NCBI RefSeq assembly: GCF_003334815.1 | Contig: NZ_QOWO01000016.1 | Reading direction: 5' to 3' (one strand) | Source: Escherichia coli | GTDB lineage: Bacteria; Pseudomonadota; Gammaproteobacteria; Enterobacterales; Enterobacteriaceae | DNA length: 64,000 bases | Shown: positions 27,837-28,210 of the stretch, one piece after another | Layout: each line of letters opens with the position of its first letter | Position numbering within the stretch: the stretch's first letter is position 1 | The notes under the pieces: model-generated | Seen by the model: only the letters and a program-made list of their open reading frames with translations | What the model was told of the DNA's origin: nothing | The model's database searches: none | Made by a program: the position numbers and the translations under genes

Positions 27837-28079
27837 ATGGTGGAGCGTTGTTCTGTTTGTGAGCAGTCATTAAGTTATTCACGAGAAGTTGAACAAGATG
27901 GCGTTGAATATAAATCTTGCCCAAAATGTTCTGCTGATGCCGGAGTGCACGTTTTTTATAAAACAATAGACTTTGGTTATAGGGATATGGGAGACGGCAG
28001 GCATATCGTTCAGTCATGGTGTCCGGCTTGCCGTTCTGGTGAAAAACCTTCTATACCACCAGCATTTAAATGTTGTTAA
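27837..28079 (+). CDS. Small cysteine-rich protein (zinc-ribbon-like), moron between Q and lysis genes
   Basis: 80 aa with CxxC...CxxC...CxxC; preceded by AGGAGAG; followed by a hairpin at about 28096..28125. Confidence 0.45.
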   Translation: MVERCSVCEQSLSYSREVEQDGVEYKSCPKCSADAGVHVFYKTIDFGYRDMGDGRHIVQSWCPACRSGEKPSIPPAFKCC

Positions 28080-28210
28080 CTCAATGAATTATAAAAAGAG
28101 GCTGCCTGTGGGCGGCCTTTTTTGTGCACTACGCATCTTTTGCGACTCAGCGCTATAACCAGCTTCTTTCCCTTCACTCGTTGCACTTCCGATAACCGGA
28201 GGTGGGAATT

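What the first reader, a model, noticed from the sequence alone, without database searches (positions are those of the whole stretch)
27837..28125. Small cysteine-rich (zinc-ribbon-like) moron between Q and the lysis cassette
An 80 aa ORF with three CxxC pairs, its own SD and a downstream hairpin sits in the classical late-promoter-proximal moron slot, where Stx phages carry toxin genes. It would be highly expressed on induction and possibly from the lysogen.
Basis: partly seen in the sequence, partly recalled or inferred. Interest (0 to 1): 0.45.

Follow-up and report, generated by a model that had tools for sequence, protein, structure and literature searches.

The report
Small zinc-protein cargo gene before lysis genes
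A real, conserved 80-residue cysteine-rich gene sits as swappable cargo between a prophage's late-gene switch (Q) and its lysis genes; its function is untested, but its relatives cluster with DNA methyltransferases and are fused to restriction-type nucleases, which points to a role in DNA methylation and restriction.

Summary
The ORF at 27837-28079 encodes 80 aa with an AGGAG ribosome-binding site. It has CxxC pairs at residues 5/8, 28/31 and 62/65, followed by an intrinsic terminator (28094-28123). It lies between Q (26796-27548) and holin/endolysin/spanin (28211-29466).

It is a real gene under purifying selection (dN/dS about 0.06-0.16), in a low-GC 445-bp module (GC3 0.26 against about 0.5 in neighbours). 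Phages with the same Q and late promoter carry other genes in this slot, so the cargo ("moron") reading holds.

In this window a terminator (27652-27677) precedes the gene and I found no good promoter of its own, so expression is probably Q-dependent and late. In Citrobacter/Klebsiella-type relatives the gene follows the late promoter shared with Stx1a phages and SfII, with no terminator in between. There it probably rides the constitutive late-leader transcript.

The protein (phrog_7682, RefSeq "hypothetical protein") matches no Pfam, NCBIfam, PADLOC or PDB entry. Eight invariant Cys/His residues suggest two zinc sites.

The wider family is fused to McrA-like HNH and other nucleases, DndB and HTH domains. 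Its genes are strongly enriched next to DNA methyltransferases.

Best guess, with modest confidence: a zinc module that acts in the methylation/restriction conflict.

The parts
26796..27548 (+). Late antiterminator Q (250 aa, with DnaJ-like CxxCxGxG repeats)
   Evidence: phrog_127 'anti-termination protein Q-like', E 8.5e-109. RefSeq calls the identical gene 'antitermination protein Q' (ydfT) in L001.
27580..27620 (+). Candidate late promoter PR': -35 TTGCAT (27580-85), a 17-nt spacer, -10 TAGGAT (27603-08), then TAACGAT (27614-20), which resembles the lambda pause-inducing AACGAT
   Evidence: Coordinates are. The segment 27560-27681 is 87-94% identical to the DNA right after Q in Stx2c phages, Ayreon and mEp460. 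Calling it PR' is an inference from position and from my memory of lambda PR'. The match to consensus is weak (7 of 12) and the scanner did not list it.
27652..27677 (+). Intrinsic terminator after the late promoter (the tR' equivalent)
   Evidence: 10-bp stem plus a U-run, -17 kcal/mol, z -4.6, 0 of 200 shuffles as good. The equivalent site is annotated 'terminator' in phage Ayreon. The sequence resembles the hairpin that follows the late promoter in SfII and Stx1a phages.
27681..27836 (+). Low-GC leader of the cargo module. 27713-27735 still aligns with the -10 and start region of the late promoter used by relatives
   Evidence: GC 0.37, alignment. No consensus sigma-70 promoter was found on the + strand.
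27825..27829 (+). Shine-Dalgarno sequence AGGAG
   Evidence: AAGGAG is conserved at this position in relatives.
27837..28079 (+). The 80-aa Cys-rich protein gene (phrog_7682; RefSeq WP_001306866.1, hypothetical protein)
   Evidence: The AlphaFold2 model has pLDDT 84.
28094..28123 (+). Intrinsic terminator of the cargo module
   Evidence: A hairpin with a U-run starts within about 10-25 nt of the stop codon in 22 of 25 representative lambdoid relatives, with differing, mutually compensating stem sequences.
28211..28552 (+). Lambda-family holin with a Met-Lys-Met dual start
   Evidence: phrog_126, E 4e-40. RefSeq name 'phage holin, lambda family'. Start coordinates.
28556..29032 (+). Endolysin (glycoside hydrolase family 24)
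   Evidence: phrog_90, E 1.8e-63; RefSeq name.
29029..29466 (+). Rz-type spanin gene, with an embedded Rz1-like ORF at 29222-29413
   Evidence: ORFs. RefSeq annotates a DUF2570 protein and an Rz1-like LysC in the near-identical prophage.
23561..24247 (+). Phage N6-adenine DNA methyltransferase of the same prophage. This is context only and is not adjacent to the gene
   Evidence: phrog_111 DNA methyltransferase, E 5e-90. RefSeq name 'phage N-6-adenine-methyltransferase'.

Best explanation
The ORF is a genuine, horizontally acquired accessory gene. It occupies the variable slot between the Q-dependent late promoter/terminator and the lysis cassette of a lambdoid E. coli prophage.

In this window RNA polymerase that starts at the late promoter (about 27580-27610) stops at the first terminator (27652-27677) unless Q has modified it. 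After induction, Q-modified polymerase reads through that terminator, the 80-aa gene and its own terminator (28094-28123) into the holin, endolysin and spanin genes. The protein would therefore be made abundantly and late. This step is inferred from the architecture, not measured.

The product is a small soluble protein with eight invariant Cys/His residues (C5, C8, C28, C31, H38, C62, C65, C79), which probably hold two zinc ions. It belongs to a widespread, unnamed domain family. That domain also forms the N-terminal, non-catalytic part of McrA-like HNH nucleases and other defence-type nucleases, and its stand-alone genes lie next to DNA methyltransferases far more often than chance predicts.

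The most likely mechanism, held with modest confidence, is that the domain is a recognition or adaptor module working on DNA, or on the enzymes, of the methylation/restriction conflict. The stand-alone phage copy could shield or read the phage's (un)methylated sites, or act as a decoy for modification-dependent nucleases while the phage DNA is replicated and methylated.
For: Gene reality: full-length match to phrog_7682, 20 homolog clusters, invariant Cys/His, dN/dS 0.06-0.16.

Cargo status: low GC and GC3. Ayreon and mEp460 have the same Q, promoter and terminator but different genes in the slot. Only 23 of 5426 complete E. coli genomes carry the whole segment.

Transcription layout: both terminators fold significantly better than shuffled sequence. 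The downstream terminator is conserved with compensatory changes in 22 of 25 relatives.

Layout in relatives:
- Q abuts reverse-strand cargo, with a gap of under 40 nt or a short overlap in most loci, which leaves no room for a promoter there.
- A conserved element of about 45 nt lies upstream of the gene.
- The same element precedes stx1AB in Stx1a phages and the holin in SfII, where a short hairpin terminator follows it.
- The late promoter is described as always active but terminated during lysogeny (PMC7547250 abstract).

Family function:
- 289 family representatives were found.
- The domain is fused to HNH domains related to McrA (PDB 6ghc, E 1.7e-4; PADLOC mREase_IV).
- It is fused to a nuclease domain related to the candidate defence families PD-T4-1 and PDC-S36.
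- It is fused to DndB/DGQHR, to an XRE-type HTH and to DUF3553.
- Some fusions are only this domain plus HNH (P0132, P0089).

Methyltransferase linkage:
- Neighbours belong to several PHROG methyltransferase families (phrog_56, phrog_67, phrog_359, phrog_799, with hits to phrog_498), and a Pfam Dam (PF05869) gene lies directly upstream in another lambdoid phage.
- 26 of 207 genes within three positions of the gene are methyltransferase-like, against 3 of 236 further away and 1 of 247 in random loci.
- An unbiased motif count gives 22 of 107, against 4 of 126 and 1 of 155.
- A domain-HNH fusion sits directly after a DpnII restriction-modification cassette.
Against: - No experiment, transcript or protein data exist for this gene.
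- There is no significant match to any named family or solved structure, so zinc binding and nucleic-acid binding are both inferred.
- The enterobacterial lambdoid subfamily, including this protein (pI 6.05, net charge -1), is neutral to acidic. The wider family is mostly basic. That argues against simple DNA binding for this particular copy.
- In this window and most lambdoid relatives no methyltransferase is adjacent; the nearest one is 3.6 kb upstream.
- The methyltransferase-linked loci are not phylogenetically independent. One Clostridia cassette recurs about 10 times.
- Fusions to HTH and DndB would also fit a protein- or ligand-binding role.
- The domain-HNH fusion beside a DpnII system cannot be reading that system's own methylation product without killing its host.
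Confidence: 0.4

Rival explanations
1. It is a prophage-encoded defence or superinfection-exclusion factor. It would be made in the lysogen from the constitutive late-leader transcript and interfere with incoming phages or plasmids.
For: In relatives no terminator separates the conserved late-promoter element from the gene, and that promoter is constitutive (PMC7547250). The gene borders a hotspot of reverse-strand defence-like cargo: GmrSD+HEPN, RelA_SpoT+NA37, PDC-S20, PDC-S42 and PDC-M53A. In a P2-like prophage it sits downstream of the gpA replication gene, next to a ParDE toxin-antitoxin pair.
Against: No PADLOC hit. In this window a strong terminator precedes the gene and no promoter of its own was detected. 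An 80-aa protein with no enzymatic domain would need a partner. The methyltransferase linkage is not explained.
Confidence: 0.2
2. It is a small zinc-finger regulator of gene expression. It would work like Mu Com (translational activator of the mom DNA-modification gene), like Ogr/Delta, or like the C proteins of restriction-modification systems. Its target would be an adjacent methyltransferase or the lysis and late genes.
For: It is a small CxxC...CxxC protein found directly beside DNA-modification genes in many contexts. JGI labels one family member 'phage FluMu protein Com'. Some members are fused to an XRE-type HTH or to the DndB regulator. In lambdoid relatives it lies upstream of the lysis genes, directly before the holin in most.
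Against: There is no Pfam Com or Ogr_Delta hit. The methyltransferase lies upstream as often as downstream of the gene. The holin families and their leaders differ among relatives, so no common target is evident. This copy is acidic.
Confidence: 0.15
3. It is a routine lysis-cassette accessory protein, for example a lysis-timing regulator, rather than cargo.
For: In the lambdoid relatives examined it lies upstream of the lysis cassette, most often about 85-140 nt before the first holin gene, and at least four holin families follow it.
Against: A terminator separates it from the holin. In some relatives a methyltransferase lies between them. Homologs occur in the nin region (the delayed-early region upstream of Q), in P2-like prophages and in non-phage restriction-modification cassettes. 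No transmembrane segment is present. Phages with the same Q or the same holin type lack it.
Confidence: 0.07
4. It is a chance ORF or a decaying remnant with no function.
For: Short ORFs are common. Several RefSeq genomes leave it unannotated. No INPHARED phage record encodes it.
Against: dN/dS is about 0.1 while synonymous sites are close to saturation. Eight Cys/His residues are invariant across 20 clusters. There are 289 distant family representatives. The ribosome-binding site and terminator are conserved.
Confidence: 0.02

Closest known systems
Late-promoter-proximal morons of lambdoid phages (stx1AB and stx2AB in Stx phages)
   Same: It occupies the same slot, downstream of Q and the late promoter and upstream of the holin. 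Relatives use the very same conserved late-promoter element as Stx1a-converting phages. It is foreign in composition, variably present, and followed by its own terminator.
   Different: It encodes an 80-aa cytoplasmic zinc protein, not a toxin. It has no recognisable promoter of its own (stx1 has an iron-regulated one; this is from my own knowledge). In relatives it replaces the short hairpin that normally ends the late-leader RNA, instead of lying behind it.
The short late-promoter leader RNA of Stx phages (StxS; PMC7547250) and lambda 6S RNA
   Same: In relatives the gene lies on the transcript that starts at the constitutive late promoter and ends at the first terminator, as these short RNAs do.
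   Different: Here the leader would be an mRNA of roughly 430 nt for a protein, not a non-coding RNA of about 60-190 nt. In this window a separate short leader with its own terminator (27580-27677) precedes the gene.
N-terminal DNA-recognition domains of Type IV (modification-dependent) HNH nucleases such as E. coli McrA
   Same: Homologs of this domain occupy the N-terminal, non-catalytic position in proteins whose C-terminal HNH domain is related to McrA.
   Different: No sequence or fold similarity to McrA's own N-terminal domain was detected. The phage protein has no nuclease domain. Binding to modified DNA has not been tested.
Phage Mu Com (zinc-finger translational activator of the mom DNA-modification gene)
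   Same: Both are small CxxC...CxxC proteins encoded next to a DNA-modification gene on a temperate phage. One family member carries this name in JGI.
   Different: It is not detectably homologous (hhalign probability 5.8%) and there is no Pfam hit. This family has a second Cys/His cluster. The gene order relative to the methyltransferase is variable.
Generic zinc ribbons (FmdB/CxxC_CxxC_SSSS TIGR02605; Zn_ribbon_TFIIB PF13453)
   Same: The first two CxxC pairs (residues 5-31) have the spacing of a zinc ribbon and give weak hits to both families.

Membership tests
Moron (accessory gene unit in a lambdoid phage) | Present in some phages and absent in others that share the flanking genes | tested here: met
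   Ayreon and mEp460 share Q, the late promoter and its terminator but carry other genes in the slot. SfII and Stx1a phages share the relatives' late promoter without this gene. Only 23 of 5426 E. coli genomes carry the whole segment.
Moron (accessory gene unit in a lambdoid phage) | Base composition differs from the neighbouring phage genes | tested here: met
   The module has GC 0.40 and the ORF has GC3 0.26, against 0.45-0.55 for Q, the holin and the endolysin.
Moron (accessory gene unit in a lambdoid phage) | Its own terminator downstream | tested here: met
   Hairpin at 28094-28123, conserved in 22 of 25 relatives.
Moron (accessory gene unit in a lambdoid phage) | Its own promoter, allowing expression from the repressed prophage | tested here: inconclusive
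   No consensus sigma-70 promoter on the + strand in 27681-27836. The best candidate, TAAAGT at 27714-19, has a poor -35. A terminator lies upstream. Relatives appear to use the constitutive late promoter instead. Transcript mapping is needed.
Zinc ribbon | Two CxxC knuckles that together bind one zinc ion | tested here: inconclusive
   C5xxC8 and C28xxC31 are invariant. Only sub-threshold HMM hits were found. The AlphaFold2 model has pLDDT 84 but no significant structural neighbour outside its own family. Metal binding cannot be tested with these tools.
FmdB family (TIGR02605) | Score at or above the curated cutoff | tested here: not met
   19.5 bits against a cutoff of 31.3.
Mu Com / Ogr-Delta zinc-finger regulators | Detectable sequence homology | tested here: not met
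   No Pfam hit to Com or Ogr_Delta for this protein. hhalign against Mu Com gives probability 5.8%.
Known anti-phage defence proteins (PADLOC-DB v2) | Match to a defence-system model | tested here: not met
   0 families even at E up to 10.
Routine lambdoid late or lysis proteins | Homology to a holin, antiholin, endolysin, spanin or other annotated late function | tested here: not met
   The only PHROG matches are families of unknown function.
Type IV restriction enzyme (McrA-like) | Presence of a nuclease domain | tested here: not met
   The 80-aa protein consists only of the zinc domain. HNH is present only in distant fused homologs.

The most novel reading that the evidence does not exclude
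The domain is a previously unrecognised prokaryotic reader of DNA methylation state, a functional analogue of the eukaryotic CXXC domain or of the reader domains of Type IV enzymes. In bacteria it would target nucleases. Temperate phages would have captured it as a stand-alone protein. In many lambdoid prophages it would be translated from the constitutive late-promoter leader transcript, which is normally non-coding. There it would shield or mark phage DNA, or act as a decoy for modification-dependent nucleases.
Probability: 0.2. Interest if true: 0.7.

Novelty: new member of a known kind. Interest (0 to 1): 0.48.

Why it matters
The slot behind the lambdoid late promoter is where Shiga toxins are carried, so knowing what else travels there matters for prophage biology.

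This gene family is uncharacterised: PHROG lists it as unknown function, RefSeq as hypothetical protein, and it has no Pfam entry. Even so, it is conserved, widespread, statistically tied to DNA methyltransferases, and fused to restriction-type nucleases. If the link is functional, it would add a new recognition or anti-restriction module to the phage-host conflict.

The comparison also showed two features of lambdoid late-region organisation that can be tested directly. In a large group of lambdoid prophages, including Stx1a phages and SfII, reverse-strand defence-like cargo sits between the Q gene and its promoter. A protein-coding gene can also replace the terminator of the constitutive late-leader RNA.

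Tried and rejected
- **AFDB50.** It returned only uncharacterised family members and fusions.
- **Rfam.** The region 27300-28400 gave only sub-threshold terminator-like sRNA hits.
- **INPHARED phages.** A tblastn of the protein found no match.
- **Literature.** Searches for the RefSeq accession, the PHROG id and the DUF names found nothing relevant.
- **Mu Com.** I rejected homology after hhalign gave a probability of 5.8%.
- **Broad alignments.** I used a hand-built degenerate DNA pattern instead. About 25 of its 68 hits were out-of-frame chance matches, and I used those as a random control.
- **Promoter/terminator scanner.** It missed both + strand terminators because of its tail and stem rules. 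Folding showed them clearly.
- **Lysis-accessory reading.** I considered and rejected it. Homologs occur in nin, P2-like and non-phage restriction-modification contexts, and a terminator separates the gene from the holin.

Full report
**1. The observation**

The window holds an ATG-initiated ORF at 27837-28079 on the + strand, encoding 80 aa: MVERCSVCEQSLSYSREVEQDGVEYKSCPKCSADAGVHVFYKTIDFGYRDMGDGRHIVQSWCPACRSGEKPSIPPAFKCC.

- AGGAG lies 7 nt upstream of the ATG, at 27825-27829.
- CxxC pairs are at residues 5/8, 28/31 and 62/65, with further cysteines at 79 and 80.
- Fifteen nucleotides after the stop codon a 13-bp hairpin with a U-run (28094-28123) folds at -20.6 kcal/mol. None of 200 shuffles folds as well.
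- The upstream gene (26796-27548) is a Q antiterminator (phrog_127, E 8.5e-109).
- The downstream genes are a lambda-family holin with a Met-Lys-Met dual start (28211-28552), a GH24 endolysin (28556-29032) and Rz/Rz1.

**2. It is a real gene**

- The protein matches phrog_7682 (function unknown) end to end at E 7e-60.
- It is identical to RefSeq WP_001306866.1, "hypothetical protein", in a 99.7%-identical E. coli prophage.
- A search of 5.8 billion proteins found 20 clusters of proteins of 55-80 aa (all but one 78-80 aa) at 57-99% identity.
- In their alignment C5, C8, C28, C31, H38, C62, C65 and C79 are invariant, as is most of the motif FGxRDMGDGRxIVQSWC.
- Codon-level comparison of 21 genes gives a median dN/dS of 0.13 over the pairs where dS could be estimated. 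Synonymous sites are close to saturation and dN is 0.15-0.44.
- The ribosome-binding site is conserved in relatives.

A chance ORF is excluded.

**3. The transcription layout in this window**

The 122 nt after Q (27560-27681) are 87-94% identical to the DNA following the same type of Q in Stx2c-converting phages, Ayreon, mEp460 and others. Similarity stops exactly there.

This segment contains:
- TTGCAT, a 17-nt spacer and TAGGAT (27580-27608);
- TAACGAT (27614-27620), which resembles the pause-inducing AACGAT of lambda PR' as I recall it;
- a 10-bp terminator hairpin with a U-run (27652-27677; -17 kcal/mol, z -4.6), annotated "terminator" in Ayreon.

I read this as the late promoter with its tR'-like terminator. 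That is an inference from position and conservation; the hexamers are weak.

The cargo module follows at 27681-28125.
- Its GC is 0.40 and the ORF's GC3 is 0.26, against 0.45-0.55 in the flanking genes.
- No consensus sigma-70 promoter is found on the + strand in its 156-nt leader.

So in this window the gene should be transcribed mainly by Q-modified polymerase after induction. That polymerase then also passes the second terminator into the lysis genes. Expression in the lysogen would need terminator leakage or a weak promoter. The best candidate is TAAAGT at 27714-19, which has a poor -35.

**4. The slot is variable**

Ayreon and mEp460 have the same Q, promoter and terminator. Between that terminator and the holin they carry a 141-aa and a 67-aa hypothetical protein and a DNA methylase. 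Of 5426 complete E. coli genomes, 759 match part of the query but only 23 hold the whole segment. No INPHARED phage record encodes the protein, whereas 59 IMG/VR loci do.

**5. What the relatives show**

In Citrobacter/Klebsiella/Kosakonia-type lambdoid prophages the homolog lies upstream of the lysis cassette. It most often lies about 85-140 nt before the first holin gene, although at least four holin families and several endolysin types follow it. A terminator hairpin starts within about 10-25 nt of its stop codon in 22 of 25 representative loci. The stem sequences differ but remain complementary.

Upstream, between Q (short PF06530 type) and the gene, lie diverse reverse-strand cassettes:
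- RelA_SpoT+NA37, M78 peptidase+HTH and GmrSD+HEPN;
- matches to the PADLOC candidate systems PDC-S20, PDC-S42 and PDC-M53A.

In most of these loci Q abuts the reverse-strand cargo with a gap of under 40 nt or a short overlap, so no late promoter fits there.

Instead, a conserved non-coding element of about 45 nt, CTAACGCGTACGCAAAAACTATCGTAAyCTGTTAAGAGTGGT, lies about 130-160 nt upstream of the gene. The same element occurs in two other settings:
- Stx1a-converting phages: Q, three reverse-strand genes, the element, a short hairpin terminator, then stx1AB;
- Shigella phage SfII: Q, two reverse-strand genes, the element, a short hairpin terminator, then the holin.

I therefore take the element to be the late promoter of that Q family.

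In the loci that carry the zinc-protein gene, the short hairpin terminator is missing. No other terminator separates the element from the gene. In those phages the gene should therefore lie on the late-leader transcript itself. That transcript is described as always active and terminated during lysogeny (PMC7547250 abstract). This step is inferred.

The window keeps only a remnant of that promoter region (27713-27735) behind its own Q, promoter and terminator module.

**6. The protein**

AlphaFold2 with the family alignment gives pLDDT 84 and pTM 0.71. The model has short beta-strands, and the second and third CxxC pairs sit at helix N-termini. Eight invariant ligands suggest two zinc sites, perhaps C5/C8/C28/C31 and H38/C62/C65/C79. 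This pairing is my inference.

Nothing significant was found in any of the following:
- Pfam (best hit Zn_ribbon_TFIIB, E 0.017);
- NCBIfam (FmdB, 19.5 bits against a cutoff of 31.3);
- PADLOC;
- PDB sequences;
- Foldseek against PDB;

AFDB50 returns only uncharacterised family members and fusions.

**7. The wider family**

A profile search of 1.84 billion cluster representatives found 289 proteins at E up to 1e-3. Most are stand-alone proteins of 60-100 aa. The domain also occurs in fusions:
- N-terminal to HNH nucleases (P0073, P0091, P0118, P0127, P0092, P0132, P0089). Their HNH domain is related to E. coli McrA (PDB 6ghc, E 1.7e-4; PADLOC mREase_IV).
- N-terminal to a nuclease related to the candidate defence families PD-T4-1 and PDC-S36 (P0143).
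- C-terminal to a DndB/DGQHR protein (P0086).
- Joined to an XRE-type HTH (P0048) and to DUF3553.

P0132 and P0089 consist only of this domain plus HNH. This makes the domain the obvious candidate for the targeting or regulatory part of those enzymes.

**8. Linkage to DNA methyltransferases**

Stand-alone homologs lie directly beside methyltransferases from several PHROG families (phrog_56, phrog_67, phrog_359 and phrog_799, with hits to phrog_498), and beside a Pfam Dam (PF05869) gene. They sit on either side of them. The settings include lambdoid late regions, a lambdoid nin region (Dam, then the gene, then NinG, then Q), a P2-like prophage and Clostridia cassettes. A domain-HNH fusion follows a DpnII restriction-modification cassette.

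I scanned one genome per species with a degenerate DNA pattern. This gave 43 true loci and 25 chance loci that served as controls.

| Method | Within three genes of the zinc gene | Further away in the same loci | Chance loci | Fisher p |
|---|---|---|---|---|
| BLAST to confirmed methyltransferases | 26 of 207 | 3 of 236 | 1 of 247 | 9e-7 and 9e-9 |
| (D/N/S)PP(Y/F/W/H) motif, proteins of at least 150 aa | 22 of 107 | 4 of 126 | 1 of 155 | 3e-5 and 1e-8 |

Three caveats apply.
- The loci are not phylogenetically independent. One Clostridia cassette (methyltransferase, then a DUF6996/6997/7226 protein, then the zinc gene) recurs about ten times.
- The BLAST reference set came from neighbours of the gene, which biases that test. 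I added the motif count because it does not depend on that set.
- In this window the only methyltransferase (23561-24247, phrog_111) is 3.6 kb away.

**9. Mechanism**

These points are shown:
- the gene is real;
- it is cargo in the late-leader slot;
- it is bracketed by terminators;
- its family is linked to methyltransferases and to restriction-type nucleases.

These points are inferred:
- expression is Q-dependent and late in this window, and leader-borne and constitutive in relatives;
- the protein binds two zinc ions;
- it recognises nucleic acid or a partner enzyme in the methylation/restriction conflict.

The enterobacterial lambdoid subfamily is neutral to acidic (pI 4.9-7.6; this protein 6.05). 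The wider family and the fused domains are mostly basic, with a median pI of 8.4. This would fit a derived decoy or protein-binding role for the phage copy, but it weakens a simple DNA-binding model.

The rivals are a lysogen-expressed exclusion factor, a Com- or C-protein-like regulator, and a lysis accessory. Each is listed with its evidence in the rival explanations. Homology to Mu Com was tested and not found.

**10. Verdict**

In this window lysogenic expression is unlikely, because a terminator precedes the gene and no promoter of its own is evident.

The gene is a new, uncharacterised member of a known kind, late-promoter-proximal phage cargo. The family-level links to DNA methylation and restriction, and the leader-transcript placement in relatives, make it a reasonable experimental target. 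Its function remains unproven.

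Noticed in passing
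L005 4840-4886; L075 2501-2548; L076 2001-2047. The remnant in the window is at 27713-27735: A conserved element of about 45 nt, CTAACGCGTACGCAAAAACTATCGTAAyCTGTTAAGAGTGGT, lies between reverse-strand cargo and the first late gene in many lambdoid prophages, in Stx1a-converting phages and in SfII. The GCGTACGC palindrome is replaced in some loci by GCGGTCCGC, which keeps the symmetry. It is probably the late promoter and Q-binding region of the short PF06530-type Q proteins.
   Followed up: partly
L002 1732-3809; L005 3478-4705; L007 1943-4800; L009 1847-3429; L075 346-2453; L076 340-1954: In these phages the Q gene is separated from its presumed late promoter by 1-3 kb of mostly reverse-strand, highly variable cargo. 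Examples are RelA_SpoT+NA37, M78+HTH, GmrSD+HEPN and the PADLOC candidates PDC-S20, PDC-S42 and PDC-M53A. This looks like a defence-gene hotspot between Q and its promoter.
   Followed up: partly
window 27652-27677, compared with L076 (SfII) and L075 (Stx1a): The terminator hairpin after the window's late promoter (AAACCGCCACCGAGCGGTTTTTT) closely resembles the one after the unrelated late-promoter element of SfII and Stx1a phages (AACCCGCCGTCGAGCGGGTTTT). The promoter parts differ.
   Followed up: no
window 26796-27548: The 250-aa Q protein carries four CxxCxGxG-type repeats (CERCSGTG, CQHCHGKG, CRGCKGKG, CGRCNGN), like the DnaJ zinc-finger domain.
   Followed up: no
window 29750-30350: A second low-GC dip (0.36-0.39) lies between the spanin genes and the HNH/terminase genes. 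It contains an 83-aa ORF (29896-30147, phrog_16949, unknown function) and lies just downstream of a 91-aa ORF (29502-29777, phrog_34701, unknown). This is another moron-like slot. The near-identical prophage L001 has a different 144-aa gene in that region.
   Followed up: partly
L085 3693-6104, with similar loci L087, L092, L100, L107, L111, L137 and L141: A recurrent Clostridia/Tissierella cassette consists of a Dam-like N6 methyltransferase (phrog_56), a 424-431-aa protein made of DUF6996, DUF6997 and DUF7226, sometimes a second methyltransferase, and then the zinc-protein homolog. It looks like an uncharacterised restriction-modification-type system.
   Followed up: partly
P0107, P0141, P0154, P0164, P0208 and others (160-180 aa): A large subfamily, apparently in high-GC bacteria, fuses an N-terminal DUF3553 domain (motif GxxVxHxxxPxWGxGxV) to this zinc domain. 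The motif reminded me of Tudor-like RNA-polymerase-binding domains; I did not test this.
   Followed up: no
window 28211-28219: The holin begins Met-Lys-Met, the dual-start motif of lambda S, which produces a holin and an antiholin.
   Followed up: no
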